Assembly (NCBI RefSeq): GCF_009914755.1
Contig: NC_060936.1
Length of the DNA stretch: 64,000 nt
From: the human T2T-CHM13v2.0 reference genome, Homo sapiens
Strand: one strand, 5' to 3'
The notes beneath the pieces are model-generated. The model was not told where the DNA came from. It made no database searches and was given only the letters and a program-made list of their open reading frames with translations. Below, piece after piece: positions 6,135-53,585 of the stretch (its first letter is position 1; each line of letters starts with the position of its first letter). A program made the position numbers and the translations under genes.

Positions 6135-6360
6135 GGCAATGTAATATAGTTATTGGCATAGGGTCCAGTAACTAAGTATTTGCATTCAAGTCCTGACTCC
6201 ACTACTTATTAGTTACGTGACCTTCGGAATGTTAACCTTTCAGTTCCTCAATTCCATTATGTATAAATACTATAAATGATAGGGTTGTTCTGAATATCAA
6301 ATGACTAACACATGTACTTAAAACAATGCGTGGGATAAGGTAAGCCCTATACGTATTGTG
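6135..6360 (+). mobile_element. MIR SINE remnant
   Basis: MIR core-like 'ttcaagtcctgactccactacttattagttacgtgacctt...cagttcctca'. Confidence 0.65.
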
Positions 6361-7876
6361 CTAAAAGACTAGTTTATTATTTGTTATTGTGCTTGTCAGT
6401 TTTAGAATCTGCCATTCAAAGATCATTTATTTAAATGTCTTGTGATCTGCAACTCTATGCTGTGATCTAGAGTGCTGATAAGATGACCAGAAACGGCATG
6501 ACAAGGGTCTTCCCATTTGTAGGCTTCACTATAGGCCATTGCGTTGGGGAACCCTGGCTGTCAATACCTTCATATTTTCAGTTTGTCAGATTACCTGCCT
6601 GAAGACTGCACATCTGTCTTCAGGTAAGAAGGCTAAGGATTTCAACCTTCGTTGTAAAATTATACTTAAAGTTTTCTATGTGGTATTTCCATCCACCACT
6701 TTGCTTTAAGCTTTTTGGTGAATAAACTCCATAGTGTTCAGTCTGGTGGGAATGAGCTAAGTTAGACTGAATTTTGCTGTCTAACTTTCCCTCTTAAATA
6801 AATTTTCTAATTTAGATTGTGTATCAGCTTTCCCTATCACTGGCTTCAGAACCATTTTCTTTGATCTGTTAAGTGAGTAACCACTTGACCACAACTTTCC
6901 AGCTTCCAATGTTTTTAATAGATGTGCTTTTACACCTTGTTATAAATGCCTTTGCTGTTTTTAAAATGGGATTTTACAGAAACTAAAGGTAAATGTGAGT
7001 GTTAAATGTACCATCTTTAACCAGAGCTGAAATGACTATTTAAGACAATAAGAAGCAATTATTAGGGAGAACAAAGTCTACTTATAAATAGACATTCAGC
7101 TCTATAAATTTCCTTTCCTTAACAAGCATTGATATTTTGGGAATAGCACTTCCGAATAACTGTACCCACTTAAAATTTCTCAATAAGAAAGCAGAAACAA
7201 AATCTTAAGCTCTGAATCTATAGCACAATGTTTATCCCTCTGCTTATCCTGCAATTTTCCCAATGCAGAAAAATTCCCAGTAGTGCAAGTTACAGCATCC
7301 ACCACCAAGCATTGCCTTCTTCACTTGTATTCAAGTGTGTAAACATACATGAGGTTGACTATGTATGAGGTGCTATTTACCAAAATTATTTTTGCCATCA
7401 TTCATGCAAACCAGCCCCCTTAAATGATTTTTAAGAAGGGAGATCTAATAGAACAGAGAGAAACATCATCTTTGGAAATGATGCAGAAAAGCTCAGCAAA
7501 AGAGAGTGAGAAAGTTGGAAAGAGCAGCAGCCAGAGCATCCATTTTTGTCACATATCATATGGAGAGAGAAGGCTTGCTGTCAGGCTTGTATTTGCTAAA
7601 AGCAACACTGTGCTTTTATACAAAATGTTCATTATGATAACGGTCACTTCAAGAAATGTCTTTTTTTTTTTTTTGCCTCACATCCCATTTTGGGGAAAAT
7701 AATTAAAGGCATTAACTCAAGAGTAGGTGTATTTCTTTGGTAAAATATGGTTTCAGCAATGTTAATACAGCAAGCTTAACTGTTCATTTATTCTATTGTT
7801 AATTTTTTAAAAAATTATAATTAAGAAGAAAGACCTTTTATTTCCTGTCTCTTTGATTATCACACTGTGGGGTTTT

Positions 7877-12317
<4,441 letters not shown>

Positions 12318-16644: not shown

Positions 16645-17155
16645 AGTAGTGGCTTTAAAACATGGCTATGAATTCTTTTTAACACTCTGTCCATCAAGAG
16701 ATAAGGTCTGTGCCACTTCTCCTTGAATCTGGGTGGGGTCGTGACGGCTTCAACCAAAAGAGTATGGTGAATGTAATACTATTTGACTTCTGAGGAAAGT
16801 TTGCATAAAACCATGCAGATTTTGTATTGTTTTACTGAAGCACTTGGAGTCTTGAGCTCCAAGTCTGAATATCTTGAATTCTCCATGCCATGAATTCTCC
16901 ATGCCCAAACCACCAGGAGAATCATCCAGACATGTTAGTGAAGAAGCCTCCAGATAAATCCAGCCTTCAGTCATTCAAGTCACTGCAGAATCTGGGTCTT
17001 CCCAGCTGTTGCCCAAACATTGTGGGGTAGAGAAAAACTATCCTTACTATCCCCTTTCTGAATTTCTGACTCACAGAACCCATGAGCATAAGAAAACAGT
17101 AGTTGTTTTGTGCTATAAGCTCTTGGGTAATTTGTTACAACAGTTAGAGATGACA
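16645..17155 (+). mobile_element. MLT1 (ERVL-MaLR) LTR, F/G/H-like
   Basis: MaLR motifs 'ccttgaatctgggtggg' and 'aatttctgactcacagaacccatgagc...tttgttacaacag'. Confidence 0.75.
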
Positions 17156-18660
17156 GATAAAATGGATAATTTTAACATGTGGGGATGGCTGACTAGAAGC
17201 AGCTATGATGTGGCTTTTATGGAGAGAAATGAAAAGGACGAGTAAATACAGGACCTTCAGTTGAAACATCCAGATACTTGCATTGGGACTAATCATAAAA
17301 ACAACTCAACCCATGGAGAACAGAGAAAAGCAAAGCAAAACGATGGGTCACCCAGGAGTGACACGGAGCCAAGGAAACCTCCTCACCCAGGCAAGCCGTG
17401 TGTGAATGTGTGACCTCGGTAAACCACGGTTCTCCCAGAGACCCTTTCAACCCTTGGGTCAGGAGATCCCCTCATGAACCCACTCCACCAGGGCCTTCAG
17501 TCGGACACACAGCGCAATGTGGAGTCTCAAGCAAAGCAGCCACTCAGGCATGTGGGGAGACCCAGAAGCATTACAAACTCTGGCTCCAGACTTCCCAGCA
17601 AAAGTAACTGCAACTTCAGCATAGCGGGAGGTTAGACCTTTGTACATACCCCTAGGAAAGAGGTTAAATCCAGGAGGCCAAACAGCGATGGTCTGCAGGC
17701 CCCACTTCCATGGCATATCACAGGATAAGACTTACTGGATTAGAATTCCAGCCAGTCACTAGAAACAGTGTTGCACTTACCCGGGACAAAGTTCCTGGGG
17801 GAAGGAATAGGCTGCCATCTTTGCTGTTTAGATGACTCAGCTGTTCCAACCTGTGGGCTTTGGAGAGTCCAAACCAACCAAGGGCTGAACGTATCCCCGA
17901 CCACAGCACAGCTGCTCTCCCAAAACGTGGCCAGACTGCTTCTTTAAGCAGGTCCTTGATCCATTTCTCTTCACTGAGCGGGACCTCCCAACCGGGGCCT
18001 CCAGCCGTCCCCACCAGTGTTCTCTAGCCAACAGAGATTTGGAAATTTCCTGGGATGGAGCTCCCAAAGAGAGAGGCAGGCTGCCATCTTTACTGTTTGG
18101 AAAACTTAGTCTTTCCAGCCTCCAGCCTTTCAAGAGCCCAAGGCAACCAGGAACAGAAGTGGTATCCCAGCAAACATGGCTGCTTGACAAAAGGATGTCC
18201 AGACAGCTTCTTTAAGAGGTTCCCTAATTCCATTCCTCCTGACTGAGTGAGACCTCCAAACCAGGGTCTTCAACCACTTCCTACAGGTGCATTCAGGTCA
18301 GCAACAGGTCCGTACCTCCCTGGCGCTCCCAGATGAAGGGGCAGGCTATCATATTTGCTGTTTCACAGCTTTCACACGTGATACCTCCAGGTACTGGAAA
18401 ATCGGAGATGACTAGGGACTGGAGTGGACCCCCAACAAACCGCAGCAGCCCTACTGAAGAGTGGCCAGGCTGTTAAAAGAAAAAAAACAAAAAATAGAAA
18501 GGTCAGCAACCTCAAAGATTGAAGGTAGATAAGCCCATAAAGATGAGAAAGAATCAGCACAAGACTGTTGAAAACTCAAAAAGCCAGAGTGCCCTCTTTC
18601 CACCAAATGACCACCTCACCTCTCCAGCAAGGGTTTAGAACTGGGCTGAGGCTGGAGATG

Positions 18661-18822
18661 GCTGGAAATGAGAAAATGGTCGGTTCATTCACTAACCACT
18701 GCTGGGGTGAGAAGTTGGCTGCTGAGATAAATGAGTGGAGCTTCTTTAGTACGATAAACAGTTTTTAGAATTCTGCTAGGATGTTATTGTCTGCTGCCGG
18801 GTTTGAACACTGTATAAAATGC
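18661..18822 (+). other. Non-L1 templated insertion in L1 ORF1: inverted copy of 50924-51086
   Basis: Reverse complement of 50924-51086 aligns end to end (by hand about 19 substitutions plus 4 gap bases in ~161 nt); shared peptide KLAAEINEWS in ORFs 18568-18768 and 50980-51210. Confidence 0.93.
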
Positions 18823-19617
18823 AAAGAAGCTAAAAATTGTGATAAAACACCGAAAGAGCTGACAGACAAAATAACCAGTATAGAGAAGAATGTAACCAAC
18901 CTGAAAGAGCTGAAAAACACAATACAAGAATTTCATAATGCAATCACAAGTATAAATAGCAAAATAGACCAAGTGAAAGAAAGAATCTCAGAGCATGAAG
19001 ATGGTGTTTCTGAAATAAGCCAGGCAGACAAGAATAGAGGAAAAATGAATGAAAACGAATGAAAAAAAATTTTTTTGTACAGGATTATGTAAAGAGATCA
19101 AATCTACGACTGATTGGTGTATCTGAAAGAGATGGAGAGAATAGAACTAATTTGAAAAACATATTTCAGGATATCATCCATGAGAAGTTCCCCAACCTAG
19201 CTAGACAGGTCAACTTCAAATTCCAGAAATGCAGAGAACCCCAGTCAGATACTCCATGAGAAGATCATCCCCAAGGCATATAATCAGATTCTGTAAGGTC
19301 AAAATCAAAGAAAAAAAATATTAGGACAGCTAGAGAGAAAGGCCAAGTCACCTACAAAGGGAAGCCCATCAGACTAACAGTAGACCTTTTAGCAGAAACC
19401 CTACAAGCCAGAAGAGATTGGGATAAAACATTCAGTATTCTTAAAGAAAAGAAATTCCAAGCCAGAATTTTATATCTGGCCAAACTAAGCTTCATAAGTG
19501 AAGAAGAAATAAAACCCTTTTCAGACAAGCAAATGCTGAGGGAATTCATTACCACCAGTCCTGCTTTACAAGAGCTCCTGAAGAAAGCACTAAATGTGGA
19601 AATGAAAGACCATTAGT

Positions 19618-19930
19618 GGCCAGGCACAGTGGCTCATGCCTATAATCCCAGCACTTTGGGAGGTCAAGGCAGGCAGATCACTTGAGGTCAGGAGTTTCAG
19701 ACCAGCCTGGCCAACATGGTGAAACCCCATCTCTACTAAAAATACAAAAATTAGCCGGGTGTGGTAGCAGATGCCTATAATCCCAGCTACTTGGGAGACT
19801 GAGGCAGGAGAATCACTTGAAGCCAAAAGGTGGAGGTTTCAGTGAGCTGAGATCACACCACTGCACTCCAGCCTGGGTGACGGAGTGAGAATCCATCTCA
19901 AAAAAAAAAAAAAAAAAAAAAGAAACAGAG
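19618..19930 (+). mobile_element. AluS (Sx/Sz-like) inserted at the end of L1 ORF1
   Basis: Alu dimer with poly-A; TSD aagaccattag at 19606-19616 and 19936-19946. Confidence 0.93.
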
Positions 19931-22900
19931 ACCATAAGACCATTAGCAGCCCCTACAAAAACACACTTAAGTACACAGACTAGTGAGACTATAAAGCAAT
20001 CACATAAACAAATCTGCAAAATAATCTGCTAACATCACGATGACAGGATCAAATCCATACATATCAATACTAACATTAAATGTAAATGAGCTAAATGCCC
20101 CAATAAAAAGACACAGAGTGGCAAGCTGGATAAGGAACCAAGACCCATTGCTATGCTATCTTCAAGAGACCCATCTCACATGCAATGACACATATAGGCT
20201 TAAAATAAAGAGATATAGAAAAATCTACCAAGCAAATGGAAAACAGAAAAAAGGAGGGGTTGCAATCTTAGTTTCTGACAAAACAGGCTTTAAACCAAAA
20301 AAGATCAGAAAAGACAAGGAAGGGCATTACATAATGATAAAATATTTAATTCAACAAGAAGAGCTAACTATCATATATATATATATGAACCCTACACAGG
20401 AGCAACCAGATTCATAAAGTAAGTTCTTAGAGACCTTCAAAGAGTCTTAGAATCCCACACAATAATCATGGGAGACTTTAACACTCCATTGAAAATATCA
20501 GACAAATCACCAAGGCAGAAAATTAACAAAGATATTCAGGACCTGAACTCAGCACTGGGTCAAATGGACCTGAGAGATATCTACAGAACCCTGCACCCCA
20601 AAACAATAGAATATACTTTCTTTCATTGCCAATTGGCACTTACTCAAAAATCAATCAATAATCAGAAGTAAAACACTCCTCAGCAAATGCAGAATAACTG
20701 AAATCATAACATACAGTCTATCAAATCACAGTGCAATCAAATTTAAAACTAAGAATAAGAAATTCATTCAAAACCATACAATTCCATAGAAATTGAATAA
20801 CCTGCCCCTGAATGACTTTTGGGTAAATAATGAAGTTTAGGCAGAAATCAAGACATTCTTTGAAACTTATGAGAACAAATATATAACATATCAGAATCTC
20901 TGGGACACAGCTAAGGCATTGATAAGTGGGAAATGTATAGCATTAAATGTCCACATCAAAAAGTTAGAAAGATCTCAAGTTAACAATCTAGCATCACAAC
21001 TAAAAGAACTAGAGAACCAAGGGCAAGCAAATCCCAAAGCTAGCAGAAGACAAGAGAGAAGATTCAAATAAACAGTATCAGAAATGATAAGGGGGATAAC
21101 ACCACTGACCCCACACAAATGCAAACAACCATCAGAGAATTATTATAAACACCTCTATGCACATAACCTAGAAAATCTAGAATAAATGGATAAATTCCTA
21201 GATGCACACACCCTCCCAAGACTGAACCAGGGAGAAATTGAATCCCCGAACAGACCAATAACGAGTTCTGAAATTGAGGTAGTAATAAATAGCCTACCAA
21301 CGAAAAACAAACAAACAAAAAAAGCCCAGGACCAGATGGGTTCACAGTTGAATTCTATCAGATGTAGAAGAAGAGCTGGTACTATTTCTACTGAAACTAT
21401 TCCAAAAACTTGAAAAGAAGAAACTATTTTCTAACTCATTCTATGAGGCAAGCATCATGGTGATACAAAAGCCTGGCAGAGATACAACAAAAAAAGAAAA
21501 TTTCAGGCCAATATCCTTGAGGAATATCAGTGCAAAAATCTTCAACAAAATACTGGCAAACTGAATCCAGCAGCACATCAAAAAGCTTATCCACAACGAT
21601 CAAGTAGGCTTCATCCCTGGAATGAAAGTTTGGTTCAACATATGCAAATCAATAAATGTGATTCATCATATAATCAGAACAAAAGGCAACAAGTACATGA
21701 CTAACTCGATAGGTACAGAAAAGACTTTCAATCAAATTCAACATCCTTCAGGTTAAAAACTCTCAATAAACTAGGTATTGAAGGAACATACCCCAAAATA
21801 ATAAGAGCCATGTATGACAAAACCACAGCCAGCATCATACTGAATGGGCAAAAGCTGGAAACATTCCCCTTGAAAACTTGCACAAGACAAATATGTGCTC
21901 TCTCACAACTCCTATTAAACATAGTATTGGAAGTTCTGGCCAGGGCAATCAGGTAAGAGAAATAAATAAAAGGAATTCAAATAGTAAGAGAGGAAGTCAA
22001 ACTATCTCTGTTTACAGATGACACAATCCTAAATCTAGAAAATCCCATCTTCTGAGCCCAAAGGTTTCTTAAACTGATAAGTGTCTTCAGCAAAGTCTCA
22101 GGATACAAATTCAATGTGCAAAAATTGCCAGCATTCCTATATACCAACAACAGTCAAGCCAAAAGCCAAATCCCAAACAAATCCCCATTCACAATTGCCA
22201 CAAAAAGTATAAAATACCTAGTAATACAGCTAAAAGCAAAGAGAAAGATCCCTACAAAGAGATCTATGAACCACTGCTCAGAAAAATCAGAGATGACACA
22301 AACAAATGGAAAAACATTCCATGTTCATGGATAGGAAAAACAAGTGTCATTAAAATGGCCATACTACCCAAAGCAATTTGTAGATTCAATTCTGTTCTCA
22401 TTAAACTACCATTGACATTCTTCACAGAACTAGAAAAAAATATATTTTAAAATTCATACAAAACCACAAAAAGAGCTTGAATAGCCAAGGCAATCCTAAG
22501 CAAAGAGAACAACATGATACCTGACTTCAAACTATACTGCAGGAGTACAGTAACCAAAACAGCATGGTAATGTTACAAAAACAGATACATAGGCCAGTGG
22601 AACAGAATCAAGAACATAGAAGTATGGCCACACACCTACAACTATCTTCAACAAACCAGACAAAAACAAACAACGGGGAAAGGATTCCCTATTCAATAAA
22701 TGGAGTTGGGATAACTGGCAAGCCATAGGCAGAAGATTGAACCTGCACCCCTTCCTTAGACTATATAGAAAAGTTAACTCAATGTTGGTTAGCAACTTAA
22801 ACATAAAGCCCAAAACTATAAAAAACCCTGGAAGACAGCCTAGGCAATACCATTTAGGACATAGGCATGGGCAAAGATTTTATAACAAAGACGTCAAAAG

Positions 22901-24204
22901 CAATTGCAACAAAACCAAAAATTGACAAATAGAATCTAATTAAAGAGCTTCTGCACAGCAAAAGGAACTAATAGAGTAAACAAACAACCTGCAGTATGGG
23001 AGAAATTTTTTGCAAACTGTGCATCTGACAAAAATCTAATATTTCGGCATCTATAAGGTACTTAAACAAATGTACAAGAAAAACACAACCCTATTAAAAA
23101 GTGGGTAAAAGACATGAACAGACACTTTTCAAAAGAAGATATACATCCAACCAACAATCTTATGAAAGAAAAGCTCAACATCACTGATCATTAGAGAAAT
23201 GCAAATCAAAACCATAATGAGATACCATCTAACACCAGTCAGAATGGCTACTAATAAGTCAAGAAATAACAGATGCCGGCAGAGAAAAGGGAACACTTAT
23301 ACACTGTTGATGGGAGTGCAAATTTGGTCAATCATTGTGGAAGACACTGTGGTGATTCCTTAGAGACCTTAAGACAAAAATATCGTTTGACCCAGTAATC
23401 CCGTTACTGGGTACACACCCAAAGAAATATAAATTATTCTATTATAAACATACATGCACACATATATTCATTGCAGCACTATTCACAATAGCAAAGACAT
23501 GGAATCAACCTAAATGCCCATCAATGATAGACTGGATAAAGAATATGTGGTACATACACACCATGGAATAATATTCAGCCATAAAAAAGGAACAAGATCA
23601 CATCCTTTGCAGGAACATGGATGGAACTGGAGATCAAAACTAATACAGGAACAGGAAACCAAATACTGTTCTCACTTATAAGTGGGAGCTAAATGATGAT
23701 AATACGTGAACACATACAGGGGAACAATACACACTGGGGCCTTTCAGAGGGTAGAGAGTGGGGGGAGGGAGAGGAGTGGGAAAAATAACTAATGGATACC
23801 AGGCTTAATACCTGGGTGATGAAATAATCTGTACAACAAACCCCCGTGACACAAGTTTACCTGTGTAACAAACCTGTACTTATTCCCCTGAACTTAAAAT
23901 GAAAGTTACAAAATAAATAAATAACAATAAAAAGCATTATAATTTTTTTTTAATTTTTACATACAGCAGGCCAGGGTTTTCAATCCCCTACTCCTTTTTA
24001 GGAATGAGGCTTTGGTGAGACAAATAGGAAAGAAGGAGCTCTGGCTTGCTTTACAATGAATAAAAGGATATCTAAAAGAGGCAGTCAAAACTAGCATAAT
24101 AAGGATTTTTCTTTTGTTTTATAGTTATTTCCCTCTGGAAAGTATGAAGGATCTAAATTTTTCCATCACACTCAAATATTGTAAGAACCAAAATGAGATA
24201 CCAC

Positions 24205-39165: not shown

Positions 39166-39330
39166 GTTAATATTTAATCAGATTAAATATTAACAAATCA
39201 TATTAAATACTAACAAATATTTAATATTTATATTTAATACTAACAAATATTTAATATTTATATTTAATACTAACAAATATTTAATATTTATATTTAATAT
39301 TAACAAATATTTAATATTTATATTTAATAA
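39166..39330. repeat. Perfect hairpin followed by an AT-rich 30-bp minisatellite (4 copies)
   Basis: gttaatatttaatc-a-gattaaatattaac (39166-39194), then taacaaatatttaatatttatatttaata(c/t/a) at 39211, 39241, 39271 and 39301. Confidence 0.95.
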
Positions 39331-50609: not shown

Positions 50610-50972
50610 CCTCAGGTTTAAGACAAAATCATAGGTGATTGTCCTATGACCAAAATTTTTTTATTAAAAAAAGATTATCTCTCCTTTAAATGCAATGAAT
50701 GAACTTTCAGAAAAGTAAATAAAATATTTGAGAATGAGGATATATTTTTTCTGTCCAAATTAATCATTTCCTAGTTTTTTTAACCCTGATTTGCTACCTC
50801 ATAGTTTCTAAAGTATGAAGTCAGTTTTTCTCATTCCCTCCTCACTTAACATTTTCTTTGTTCAATTCTGTACAAAGAGCTCTTATTAAGAATGATGAGT
50901 CAATCCTTTCTGTACAAGATAAGGCATTTTATACAATGTTCAAACCCAGCAGCAAGTACAATGACATCCTAC

Positions 50973-51192
50973 CTGAATTCTAAAAACTGTTCATCTCGCT
51001 AAACGAGCTCCATTCATTTATCTCAGCAGCCAACTTCCCACTGCAGCAGTGGTTAGTAAGTGAACCGACTATTCTCATTCCCAGGCATTTTTTCCATTCA
51101 TCTTGCTCTTCAAAATGTGTGAATACATTAAATCGCTCAGTGTTGAGTGGTGGTAAATCACAGCTCTGCACGCCCGACTTCCACTGAAGCCG
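50973..51192 (-). ncRNA. Candidate non-coding exon (first or internal) of a minus-strand transcript
   Basis: Strong donor TTCAG|GTAGGA at 50973/50972; possible acceptor ttttcttgtcag at 51193; local CpG retention; no frame stays open through the donor from an ATG. Confidence 0.5.
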
Positions 51193-53585
51193 CTGACAAG
51201 AAAACCTCATAAGAGGAGATCACTTGATATAATAATCTTGTTCCAGATATGAGGTGGGGGGAGCCAGAGGCCATAAACGGGAGAAAAGGAGGAAAGGAAG
51301 AAGATGTGGCCATGCAGCACGAATCAAAAATGAACCAAAAAGAAAAAAAAGAAAAACTTTAAGCCCCTTCCTTTAAAATAGCTTTGGCATATAAAAGAAT
51401 GAGAAAACATTTCCTCCAAAGTCGCAGTCCTTTGGGGGCAAAACTAAACTGGGCTTTGTAAATAAGAATTTAGGACTTAGAAGATAAGTAGTTTGAAAAC
51501 TACTAATCATCACTTTCAAATCTGAGTAAACTTTCAAAGGGTTAAAAAAAAAAAACTCCAAACATTTCTCTATATTTAGGTCTTTTTAGGGCCTCAGATA
51601 GAAATCAAGGGACTAGTAATCAGTACTTTAAAGATTAAGTTCTAAGTGCCCCCAGACAATCAGAAAATGAAACTTTCTTCTCTGCGAAGCTTTATGATGT
51701 GACCTGAGTGCAATCAGCAAAGAACACAAAAGAATCATGACTGATTCTAAGTCATGACCAAATTTCAGAGGTACAGGGGGAAAGTAGGACCACAGAAAAG
51801 AGGAGACAGAAAACCATCAATCTATACATCTCAAAGCTTTTAATACACAATCTATTTCATCATATCTACAGTCTTTGTGGCTGCAAAATGTTGCCTCAAG
51901 CTTAAAATGACAAATAAGGAATGGTTTCTTTTTTTGCTTTCCAAATTTTATTTTTAATTGACAAATGATATTTATATATTAATATATTTACAGAGTATAA
52001 TGTAGTATACTGCATTATCTCATTTATATGTGGAATGGCTTAAGAATCAATGAAGGAATCCACTAAGGTTTCCCATAATTAGTTCTTATATAGTGCACTC
52101 TCTGCTAAAGTATATTTCTATGCATCTTTCCCCAATCATGTTTATTACTTACAATAAGGTTCACCTGTCTTCCTGCTTCCATAATAAAGTCTTTATTGTT
52201 TTTAAATTTTAGTCATTAAGAAATCCTTCTTATACAGGAGAGAAGACACGTCTGGAAAGTTTTTCACTTATTTCCCCTTGAAATATTCCTGAAATTTTTT
52301 GAATAAAATTCAATATTCATCCAACAAGAATTCATGGAGTAATAGAAACTCTGCTCCAGGCTCTCTGCTTTTATAGTTCGGAGCTGATTCCTTATGAAGA
52401 CAACCTGACACCATAGGCACATTCAGCTCTGCTCCCTAATGCTGAGGAATACTTGTCTGAAAGGTGCTTCCACCTGGAAGCTCTGGACACACCCTACGTT
52501 TTGAAAGGAATAGCTGCAGGTGGAAAGAACATGTTACATTTCATTTCTGCATATCACAGGTCTAAGTGTCTTATCTCCCACCACCATTAGGATTTTAAAG
52601 CCAATTGATGCACACTGTAAGTGTATTTCACCACCATCCCTAGGAAAATGTTTGTCCTATGTCTAAAAGTTTGAGCTTTCACAAGCCCAACTCTCGAGGT
52701 TCAGCAGCAAGCATTTTGCTATCTAGCCCATTTTGATCGTGTGTGCCAGATACGGTAACAAGGCCAAGTCGTTTTATGCCCGCCTTCCCCAGTTCCTCCT
52801 CATCCTTTTCATCCCATGTCTAATAACTGGGCTACAGTTGTCTCTAAGTCAAAGGCCCCCACATTGTCTTAACTTTTCATAACATTAAACACCAGTTTAA
52901 GCCACAAAGCTACCAACAATCTGTAACACCCAGCCTCCTTTCCTGCCCCTTCACCATAAACAAATATGTCTGTTCCATCATCATACTCCACCACCACTTA
53001 GAGTTCTGTGTCTAGAGCTCTGTTAGGGAGGCATATGGTTTCATACCTCTGGACTTTAGAATGTACTTTTATTTCTGTTTATGAGGCTAACTCCAGCACA
53101 TCCTTCAAAACTTAACTCAGGCATAGCATCTGCTGGAAGTTTTCCCAGATCCCTCCTACCCCAAGTCTTTCTCACCTCCATGCCCCAAAGATCTGCTGCG
53201 TACAGCCCTGGAGTAACTTTTCACTGTTCCTTCCCCAGTTTGTCACCCTTGAGGAGTTTGCCTCATTGATTTATGAGCATCTTGCCATTTTAGGAGCTCT
53301 TTCTATATCTGCTCCAAGGTTAGCACCTCTAATGTAGCATCTAATTCTTAAAAATCAGAGATAGAAATTATTTTTTCTCTTTGTCAAAAGGGAAAGCAAT
53401 CTCAAAAAAATTTGCTCAATGTCACACATCTCACATCTAGTAAATTGCAGACCAGAGATTACTGCTTCCATAGCTCTCAGTCTTCACCAGTTTGGAATAT
53501 TAGTTTTCTATCTTCAATCCTTTTCACCATATTTATGCCTTATTAGAGACTGAATAAATATTTGCTGACTTAAAAATAATGAATG

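What the first reader, a model, noticed from the sequence alone, without database searches (positions are those of the whole stretch)
18661..18822. L1 ORF1 has captured an inverted ~160-bp copy of unique host sequence lying 32 kb away, with microhomology at both junctions
Seen: 18661-18822 is not L1. It is the reverse complement of 50924-51086 (about 19 substitutions plus 4 gap bases in ~161 nt by hand, about 86% identity). Established knowledge (from memory): old L1PA ORF1 runs ...GAGATGGCTGAAATGA[~65 nt]CCCAATGCAAAGAAGCTAAG.... Here that middle stretch is missing and replaced by the host copy. The junctions fall on shared sequence: left, L1 ggctg(g)aaatga versus donor cctgggaatga; right, aatgc. 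There is no poly-A and no TSD, so it is not an independent retro-insertion. The copy runs through the candidate splice donor into intron, so the template was unspliced RNA or DNA. Inference: the copy on the L1 sense strand equals the minus strand of the donor, the strand of the predicted host transcript. That is the orientation expected if the L1 reverse transcriptase jumped from L1 RNA onto the nascent host pre-mRNA and back during insertion. The alternative is a later microhomology-mediated or Pol-theta-type templated repair. Either way it would be a fossil record of an ancient contact between the two sites.
Basis: partly seen in the sequence, partly recalled or inferred. Interest (0 to 1): 0.85.

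Follow-up and report, generated by a model that had tools for sequence, protein, structure and literature searches.

The report
Nearby DNA patch inside old L1
An old, dead L1 retrotransposon on human chromosome 12 had 66 bases of its first gene replaced by an inverted 146-base copy of unique DNA lying 32 kb away, most likely a scar of error-prone DNA repair or replication, which is a known kind of mutation.

Summary
Window 18658-18822 (+) is the reverse complement of 51088-50924: 85% over 167 columns, E 2.5e-46. The whole T2T genome holds only these two copies.

The recipient is a full-length old L1 (17184 to about 23941, +). In related L1 copies 66 nt lie where this copy has 146 donor-only nt (18672-18817). 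Both joins sit on exact 5-nt microhomologies, AATGA and AATGC. The patch has no poly-A and no target-site duplication of its own.

Nothing I could test supports it. No transcript is annotated here, and the "splice donor" motif occurs at chance frequency. Known L1 chimeras carry the foreign part at the 5' end. Patch/donor divergence is somewhat lower than expected for co-insertion, though not decisively.

The cis-linked, inverted, microhomology-flanked replacement fits a DNA-level templated insertion best (MMBIR/FoSTeS or synthesis-dependent end joining). It is a new example of a known kind, of modest interest. Orthologous primate loci would settle the timing.

The parts
17184..23941 (+). Recipient: full-length old primate L1 (5'UTR, ORF1 from ATG 18543, ORF2, A-rich tail). 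Subfamily not determined.
   Evidence: 5' end: 35 of 39 non-self genome hits start at query position 135, which is window 17184. 3' end: 39 non-self hits end at window 23898-23941. ORF1 frame read.
18543..18666 (+). L1 ORF1 start up to the left join. It is already broken by an in-frame TAG at 18636-18638.
   Evidence: Translation. Alignment to relatives.
18667..18671 (+). Left microhomology AATGA, shared by the L1 relatives and the donor.
   Evidence: Rows. L1 relatives align up to 18671 (query 192 of a query starting at 18480).
18672..18817 (+). Donor-only patch of 146 nt. It is an inverted copy of 51074-50929 and replaces 66 nt of L1 ORF1.
   Evidence: core: 19 substitutions in 144 aligned positions, 4 gap columns. 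The interval is absent from 29 related L1 copies.
18818..18822 (+). Right microhomology AATGC, shared by the L1 relatives and the donor.
   Evidence: L1 relatives resume at 18818 (query 339).
50924..51079 (-). Donor template: unique non-repeat sequence. AATGA lies at 51079-51075 and AATGC at 50928-50924.
   Evidence: An 801-nt query around it finds only itself and the L1 patch in the genome.
19605..19934 (+). Alu inserted in the L1. It is unrelated to the patch and was left out of the divergence estimates.
   Evidence: Alu repeat families D1, D3, D5 and D7. L1 relatives stop at 19604 and resume at about 19935.
17150..17183 (+). Possible degenerate target-site duplication of the whole L1 (5' copy). 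The 3' copy lies at about 23921-23965.
   Evidence: Local alignment of 17150-17173 against 23921-23946, score 11; longest exact shared word ATAATTTT. Significance not tested.

Best explanation
This is a fossil templated insertion made at the DNA level inside an L1 that was already in place. Inferred steps: a break or a stalled fork arose in ORF1. A free 3' end annealed by the 5-nt microhomology AATGA to the plus strand 32 kb downstream on the same chromosome. About 150 nt were copied. The end then dissociated and re-annealed through AATGC to the L1, 66 nt further on. The result is a 66-nt deletion plus a 146-nt inverted copy, with the donor left intact. This is the signature of microhomology-mediated template switching (MMBIR/FoSTeS) or of synthesis-dependent microhomology-mediated end joining. 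The L1 is only the bystander in which it happened. Shown: the structure, donor uniqueness, donor-to-L1 direction, microhomologies and cis linkage. Inferred: that the template was DNA, and that the event came after L1 insertion.
For: (1) Structure: replacement of 66 nt by 146 nt, an exact 5-nt microhomology at each join, and no poly-A or TSD. By my own calculation (the usual (k+1)(1/4)^k(3/4)^2 expectation, not a tool result), 5 nt or more at one blunt join has P of about 0.005, and at both joins about 2e-5. (2) The donor is retained, unique and only 32 kb away in cis. A random donor within +/-32.3 kb of a 3.117-Gb genome (size) has P of about 2e-5, so the process depended on proximity. [quoted passage not shown] (3) The published MMB-TI signature is an insertion in inverted orientation to a nearby template, flanked by microhomologies, replacing reference sequence (PMC8421209, passages). 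(4) No transcript is needed, which fits a window with no annotated gene (hub annotation), no CpG island at the donor and no Rfam family. (5) Timing leans later than the L1. The L1's own lineage has JC 0.085-0.102 by star decomposition on 20-23 relatives and an ML terminal branch of 0.124. The patch/donor pair has JC 0.137 in total, about 0.068 per lineage. Transversions number 5 of 160 against about 10 expected from L1 b_tv of 0.031-0.033.
Against: Typical MMB-TIs and polymerase-theta templated insertions are shorter and use templates within about 100 bp; this limit is a search criterion in PMC8421209. A 146-nt copy from 32 kb away lies at the long end of the range. I did not find, in the papers read, a germline example of the same size and distance. 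The timing test does not reject co-insertion on all sites (P 0.20, 0.17 and 0.043 for the three L1 segments). The L1 age is an upper bound, because source-element diversity and residual CpG decay inflate it. If the donor were under constraint, nearly all 20 differences would lie on the patch side and would match the L1's own divergence. No outgroup was available to polarise the changes. Nothing in the sequence tells a DNA template from an unspliced RNA template.
Confidence: 0.5

Rival explanations
1. Co-insertional capture. During target-primed reverse transcription of this L1, ORF2p left the L1 RNA at AATGC and copied about 150 nt of an unspliced minus-strand host transcript tethered nearby. 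It then returned to the same L1 RNA 66 nt upstream at AATGA and went on to the 5' end.
For: The orientation is the one an RNA template on the minus strand would give. Such a transcript would run from the donor towards the L1 site, which would explain the cis linkage. ORF2p has template-jumping/switching activity in vitro (PMC10830420, passages). Double template switches are inferred for tripartite LINE chimeras (PMC2104539, abstract). The L1 is a canonical full-length insertion with an A-rich tail and a possible TSD. The all-sites divergence does not reject equal age (P 0.04-0.20). No progeny carry the patch, as expected for a copy dead on arrival.
Against: No transcript is annotated in the window or within 100 kb upstream (hub annotation). 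There is no CpG island. The splice-donor-like motif occurs at chance frequency (14 found, 17.25 expected). The ORF over the donor has no Pfam or PDB relative and is one of 25 ORFs of 76 aa or more in the window. The jumps described for ORF2p continue onto a new template after the first has been copied, whereas two mid-template switches are needed here. Catalogued human L1 chimeras with unique RNAs (17 loci) carry the foreign part at the 5' end (PMC11838501, section 25). This locus is not in the four readable supplementary tables of the published version, searched for coordinates beginning 6141-6152, i.e. 61.41-61.52 Mb. Those tables use hg38 coordinates, so an offset to T2T is a caveat. Non-CpG and transversion divergence is lower than co-insertion predicts (P 0.027-0.0045; 5 transversions against about 10).
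Confidence: 0.2
2. Later break repair with an RNA-derived patch (a class 2 templated sequence insertion). A double-strand break in the resident L1 was repaired by end joining with a cDNA, or directly with RNA, from a local transcript.
For: The features match class 2 TSIPs: no TSD, no poly-A, microdeletion, microhomology, and a size within the 73-414 bp range (median 191) reported for experimental TSIs (PMC5110952, passages). This reading is compatible with a patch younger than the L1.
Against: Experimental TSI donors map to distant regions on 18 of 24 chromosomes with no regional preference, and 'not from nearby genomic sequences'. Here the donor is 32 kb away in cis. As above, no transcript is known.
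Confidence: 0.15
3. Capture of a free double-stranded DNA fragment from the neighbourhood by microhomology-mediated end joining at a break in the L1. The fragment would be about 150 bp, which is nucleosome-sized.
For: The patch is 146 nt, or 156 nt with both microhomologies. Microhomology lies at both ends. Either orientation is equally likely under this model.
Against: The donor is intact in the same haplotype, so the fragment would have to come from a sister chromatid or homologue, or from over-replication. This reading has no specific support. It is hard to tell from the best explanation by sequence alone.
Confidence: 0.07
4. The 160-mer is a repeat, part of an L1 subfamily, or a chance likeness.
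For: None found.
Against: E 2.5e-46. The genome searches with 162 nt and 801 nt find only the two places. A 24-mer identical in both copies, searched with up to 3 mismatches, gives three further places (about 1.3 expected by my calculation). These share nothing beyond the 23-25 nt. None of 29 related L1 copies has the patch.
Confidence: 0.02

Closest known systems
MMBIR/FoSTeS templated insertions (MMB-TI; PMC8421209, PMC2621351)
   Same: A copy of a template that stays in place, inverted orientation, microhomology at both joins, local sequence replaced, and template in cis.
   Different: The template is 32 kb away, whereas MMBSearch looks within 100 bp. The insert is 146 nt, longer than most. 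The event is tens of millions of years old and is fixed in the reference.
Class 2 templated sequence insertion polymorphisms (Onozawa/Aplan; PMC5110952)
   Same: No TSD or poly-A, a microdeletion, microhomology, and a size within the 73-414 bp range.
   Different: TSI donors are distant or unlinked and RNA-derived. Here the donor is cis-linked at 32 kb and an RNA origin is not shown.
L1 chimeric retrocopies by RT template switching or RNA ligation (U6/L1; mRNA/L1; tripartite chimeras: PMC11838501, PMC2104539, PMC4476161)
   Same: Foreign unique sequence joined to L1 sequence in what would be the sense orientation of an RNA template. Double switches have been proposed.
   Different: In those cases the foreign part lies 5' of the L1 and the whole chimera is flanked by one TSD. 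Here the patch is internal, L1 sequence resumes on the other side, and the L1 runs to its canonical 5' end.
Short template-switch mutations in primate genomes (PMC5453318, PMC7954356; search listing and abstracts only)
   Same: A replication template switch that leaves an inverted local copy in place of the original bases, seen as a fixed evolutionary change.
   Different: Those events span tens of bases, with templates within the same few hundred bases.

Membership tests
MMBIR/FoSTeS-type templated insertion | The inserted sequence is a copy of a template that remains in place. | tested here: met
   Both copies are present and the donor is embedded in unique sequence.
MMBIR/FoSTeS-type templated insertion | Microhomology at both junctions. 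| tested here: met
   AATGA and AATGC, 5 nt each, are shared by the L1 relatives and the donor. Extension beyond 5 nt does not exceed chance.
MMBIR/FoSTeS-type templated insertion | Template nearby in cis, often inverted. | tested here: inconclusive
   The copy is inverted and on the same chromosome at 32 kb. This is far beyond the 100-bp criterion of MMBSearch but within the kb-to-Mb scale quoted for replicative switches (abstract of PMC7954356).
MMBIR/FoSTeS-type templated insertion | DNA template, copied by a DNA polymerase. | not testable with these tools
   The copy is colinear with genomic DNA. An unspliced RNA would give the same result.
Class 2 templated sequence insertion | No TSD, no poly-A; microdeletion and microhomology at the joins. 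| tested here: met
   Criteria taken from PMC5110952.
Class 2 templated sequence insertion | Patch derived from RNA of a distant locus. | tested here: not met
   The donor is 32 kb away in cis. No transcript is annotated (hub annotation). An RNA origin cannot be tested.
L1 chimeric retrocopy (RT template switch) | Foreign part at the 5' end of a (usually truncated) L1, with the whole flanked by one TSD. | tested here: not met
   The patch is internal. L1 sequence lies on both sides, and the L1 starts at the family's canonical 5' end.
L1 chimeric retrocopy (RT template switch) | Foreign part arrives at the same time as the L1. | tested here: inconclusive
   No other primate genome is on hand. 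The divergence test gives P 0.20-0.0045 against equal age, depending on site class.
L1 chimeric retrocopy (RT template switch) | Foreign part is a sense copy of a cellular RNA. | not testable with these tools
   No transcript data are available. No gene is annotated (hub annotation), and there is no Rfam match.
Independent retro-insertion (SINE, processed pseudogene) into the L1 | Poly-A tail and target-site duplication; nothing deleted. | tested here: not met
   There is no A-run or duplication at 18661-18822. 66 nt of L1 are missing.
Non-allelic gene conversion | Flanking homology between donor and recipient. | tested here: not met
   Similarity stops at the joins. Anchored extension scores are 0-5 across the four flanks (medians 0-2); null P is 0.21 for a score of 2 or more and 0.10 for 3 or more. 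The donor flanks are not L1.
Twin priming / L1 transduction | The inverted part is L1's own sequence, or the extra sequence lies at an L1 end and adjoins the source locus. | tested here: not met
   The patch is non-L1 and internal.

The most novel reading that the evidence does not exclude
The patch is a fossil of an L1 reverse transcriptase that, in the middle of copying its own RNA at the integration site, switched onto the 5' part of a nascent, unspliced host transcript tethered to the same chromatin stretch and then switched back. This would give an internal L1-host-L1 mosaic, a chimera type not in the catalogues I read. It would also record that an unannotated minus-strand transcript crossed this gene desert in the germline of an early anthropoid.
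Probability: 0.2. Interest if true: 0.6.

Novelty: new member of a known kind. Interest (0 to 1): 0.3.

Why it matters
As a single locus it matters little. It lies in a gene desert, in a dead L1, with no sign of function. Its value is as a clean, datable example: a unique donor, exact joins, and a recipient whose original sequence is known from hundreds of sister copies. It shows that templated patches of about 150 nt from tens of kb away became fixed in primate genomes.

L1 bodies make good detectors for such events, because any foreign stretch stands out against the family. A genome-wide scan of L1 interiors for non-L1 patches with cis donors could measure the size, distance and orientation spectrum of long-range template switching in the germline. 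It could also test whether patch orientation follows host transcription. That last test would separate DNA-templated from RNA-templated origins far better than this one case can.

Tried and rejected
(1) Extended homeology beside the joins. By eye, both joins seemed to have extra similarity on their left sides (for example ACATTGTA 3-4 nt before AATGC). That would have pointed to synthesis of the L1-sense strand and against first-strand cDNA synthesis. Anchored extension scores over 16 relatives were 0-5 (medians 2, 1.5, 2, 0). The null from 20,000 random pairs gives P 0.21 for a score of 2 or more and 0.10 for 3 or more. Not significant, so dropped.

(2) Known RNA families. Rfam at gathering thresholds gave 0 matches over the whole window.

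(3) Coding potential of the donor. A 76-aa ATG ORF (50980-51210, minus strand) spans it. It has no Pfam family at E up to 1 and no PDB sequence at E up to 10. It is one of 25 ORFs of 76 aa or more in the window. Treated as chance. I ran no further search on it.

(4) Splice-donor claim. MAGGTRRG has 14 matches in the window against 17.25 expected. The motif carries no weight.

(5) CpG island or promoter at the donor. GC is 0.35-0.45 around 50.9-51.3 kb, so there is no island.

(6) Other shared pieces between the two neighbourhoods, which would indicate a more complex rearrangement. Self-BLAST found none.

(7) More diverged copies in the genome. Three 24-mer near-matches proved to be chance.

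(8) Prior catalogue entry. The four readable supplementary tables of Law and Burns (Cell Genomics version) have no entry at chr12 61.41-61.52 Mb. Three PDF supplements could not be read, and the coordinates there are hg38.

(9) Earlier findings of this scan were not open to the session.

(10) L1 subfamily naming and orthologous primate loci could not be addressed. No Dfam and no other primate genome are on hand.

Full report
**The observation.** The stretch at 18661-18822 is indeed the reverse complement of the stretch near 51 kb. MAFFT aligns them cleanly, and similarity stops abruptly on both sides. A self-BLAST of the window gives 18658-18822 against 51088-50924: 85.0% over 167 columns, E 2.5e-46. 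Neither arm has any other match in the window.

**The recipient.** It is a full-length old L1 on the plus strand.
- With a query spanning the presumed 5' end, 35 of 39 non-self genome hits begin at the same base, window 17184.
- At the 3' end, 39 non-self hits stop at 23898-23941, in an A-rich tail.
- A degenerate target-site duplication is possible: 17150-17173 against 23921-23946, local score 11. I did not test its significance.
- ORF1 starts at 18543 and already has an in-frame TAG at codon 32, upstream of the patch.
- An Alu sits at about 19605-19934.
- I could not name the subfamily, because no Dfam is on hand.

**The replaced interval.** A 581-nt query across the site found 3748 first-look candidates, of which 40 were scored. 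Related L1 copies match window 18480-18671 and 18818-19060, with a gap in between. In the 29 loci fetched, the two flanks lie about 66 nt apart wherever both alignments reach the join. Sixteen of the 29 carry both sequence anchors, and 13 of those 16 have exactly 66 nt plus AATGC between them; the others have 50, 65 and 69. So 66 nt of ORF1 were replaced by 146 nt that exist only in the donor (18672-18817, equal to 51074-50929). The net change is +80 nt.

**The joins.** L1 relatives read ...GGCTGAAATGA|C... and ...CCCAATGC|AAGG.... The donor reads ...CTGGGAATGA|G... and ...TAAAATGC|CTTA.... Each join therefore lies in an exact 5-nt microhomology:
- AATGA at 18667-18671
- AATGC at 18818-18822

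By the usual expectation for blunt joins (my calculation, not a tool result), 5 nt or more at one join has P of about 0.005. Similarity beyond the 5 nt looked suggestive by eye but does not exceed chance. The patch has no poly-A and no duplication around it.

**The donor.** The whole T2T genome (3.117 Gb) holds only the two copies.
- The 162-nt patch finds itself and the donor at 85%.
- An 801-nt query centred on the donor finds itself and the patch.
- A 24-mer identical in both copies, searched with up to 3 mismatches, gives three more places. About 1.3 are expected by my calculation, and they share nothing beyond the 23-25 nt.

None of the 29 L1 relatives has the patch. The direction is therefore donor to L1, and no progeny L1 carries it. 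The word-based first look could miss copies well below 80% identity.

**Is the donor a transcript?** Nothing I could test says so.
- No gene is annotated in the window or within 100 kb upstream (hub annotation).
- Rfam finds nothing.
- GC is 0.35-0.45, with no CpG island.
- The 'splice donor' CAGGTAGG at 50975-50968 is one of 14 matches to MAGGTRRG, against 17.25 expected.
- A 76-aa ORF spans the donor, but it has no Pfam or PDB relative and is one of 25 such ORFs in the window.

This does not exclude an unannotated or extinct transcript.

**Timing.** No other primate genome is on hand, so I used divergence.
- Star decomposition of JC distances on three L1 pieces (181, 782 and 626 nt) used 20, 22 and 23 relatives of 28. 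L014 was dropped as a near-duplicate of L015, and rows with under 90% coverage or over-long spans were dropped.
- This L1's own branch is 0.085, 0.102 and 0.087 on the three pieces, and 0.084-0.098 at non-CpG sites.
- An ML tree on 14 relatives common to all pieces gives a terminal branch of 0.124.
- Co-insertion with neutral evolution predicts a patch/donor distance of about 0.17-0.20. The observed distance is 0.137 (20 of 160), and 0.100 at non-CpG sites (14 of 150).
- Binomial tests give P 0.20, 0.17 and 0.043 on all sites, and 0.027, 0.024 and 0.0045 at non-CpG sites. Transversions number 5 against about 10 expected.

The point estimate puts the patch at roughly 55-88% of the L1's age. Three caveats apply:
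- The L1 figure is an upper bound, because it includes source-element diversity and residual CpG decay.
- The patch sample is small.
- If the donor were constrained, all the changes would fall on the patch and would fit co-insertion.

I read this as a lean towards a later event, not a decision. With a recalled neutral rate of about 2.2e-9 per site per year, the figures correspond to about 31 Myr for the patch and 39-46 Myr for the L1.

**Mechanism.** Two facts need explaining. One is the microhomology at both joins. The other is a donor only 32 kb away in cis, which has P of about 2e-5 for a random genomic donor. Both are the hallmarks of template switching by a DNA 3' end at a break or collapsed fork.
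- The published MMB-TI signature is an insertion in inverted orientation to a nearby template, flanked by microhomologies and replacing the original sequence (PMC8421209, passages).
- The MMBIR model allows switches in either orientation and over long distances (PMC2621351, passages).

The present case is long (146 nt) and far (32 kb) for the small-scale class. I did not find a germline example of the same size and distance in what I read. That is why I give this reading 0.5 and not more.

**The RNA models.** Class 2 templated sequence insertions fit in size (73-414 bp), microdeletion, microhomology and lack of TSD or poly-A. Their donors, however, are distant and show no regional preference (PMC5110952, passages).

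- an unannotated minus-strand transcript;
- two mid-template switches, whereas the ORF2p jumps described continue onto a new template after the first has been copied (PMC10830420, passages);
- a return to the same L1 RNA.

Catalogued L1 chimeras with unique RNAs (17 loci) have the foreign part at the 5' end, mostly first exons in sense (PMC11838501, section 25). Double jumps are inferred for tripartite chimeras, but these join three different RNAs (PMC2104539, abstract). Experimental L1 expression does produce 'templated insertions' at insertion sites (PMC11702581, abstract passage), so an L1-linked origin is not far-fetched. This locus is not in the four readable supplementary tables of the published Law and Burns paper. 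Those tables use hg38 coordinates, and three PDF supplements could not be read.

**Verdict.** The event is a real, unique, microhomology-flanked templated replacement that records a contact between two sites 32 kb apart. The case for a reverse-transcriptase jump onto nascent RNA rests only on an orientation that a DNA template switch would produce half the time anyway. It is best filed as an old, fixed templated insertion of the MMBIR or templated-repair kind: a new member of a known class, in a non-functional setting. Interest is modest (0.3). The bold reading keeps about 0.2 probability and would be worth about 0.6 if comparative and transcript data bore it out.

Noticed in passing
window 7866-12309: A second L1 whose 3' part lies on the minus strand. 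Stretches 9712-10786 and 8218-8527 are inverted matches to 21370-22442 and 23282-23591 of the recipient L1. It is joined to a plus-oriented piece, 10929-12147, that corresponds to L1 positions 19502-21054. This is the layout of a 5'-inverted (twin-priming type) L1.
   Followed up: no
window 18667-18671 and 18818-18822: Both microhomologies of the patch share the core AATG (AATGA and AATGC). In L1 and in the donor alike, the exchanged segment is therefore bounded by a direct AATG repeat. This may be chance in AT-rich DNA, or a hint about the annealing step.
   Followed up: no
window 17809-18006 and 18078-18275: An internal direct repeat of about 200 nt (73% identity) in the L1 5'UTR. I did not check whether it is family-wide.
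   Followed up: no
window 19605-19934: A plus-strand Alu inserted in the recipient L1, between ORF1 and ORF2 sequence.
   Followed up: partly
window 50980-51210 (minus strand): A 76-aa ATG ORF spans the donor. It has no Pfam or PDB relative and is one of 25 ORFs of that size or larger in the window.
   Followed up: partly
window 39167-39329: An AT-rich tandem array with copies spaced 13-30 nt start to start.
   Followed up: no
loci L014 and L015 (G000 C23:153.72 Mb minus strand and 153.59 Mb plus strand): Two X-linked L1 copies give identical match statistics in opposite orientation, about 130 kb apart. They look like arms of a large inverted duplication.
   Followed up: no
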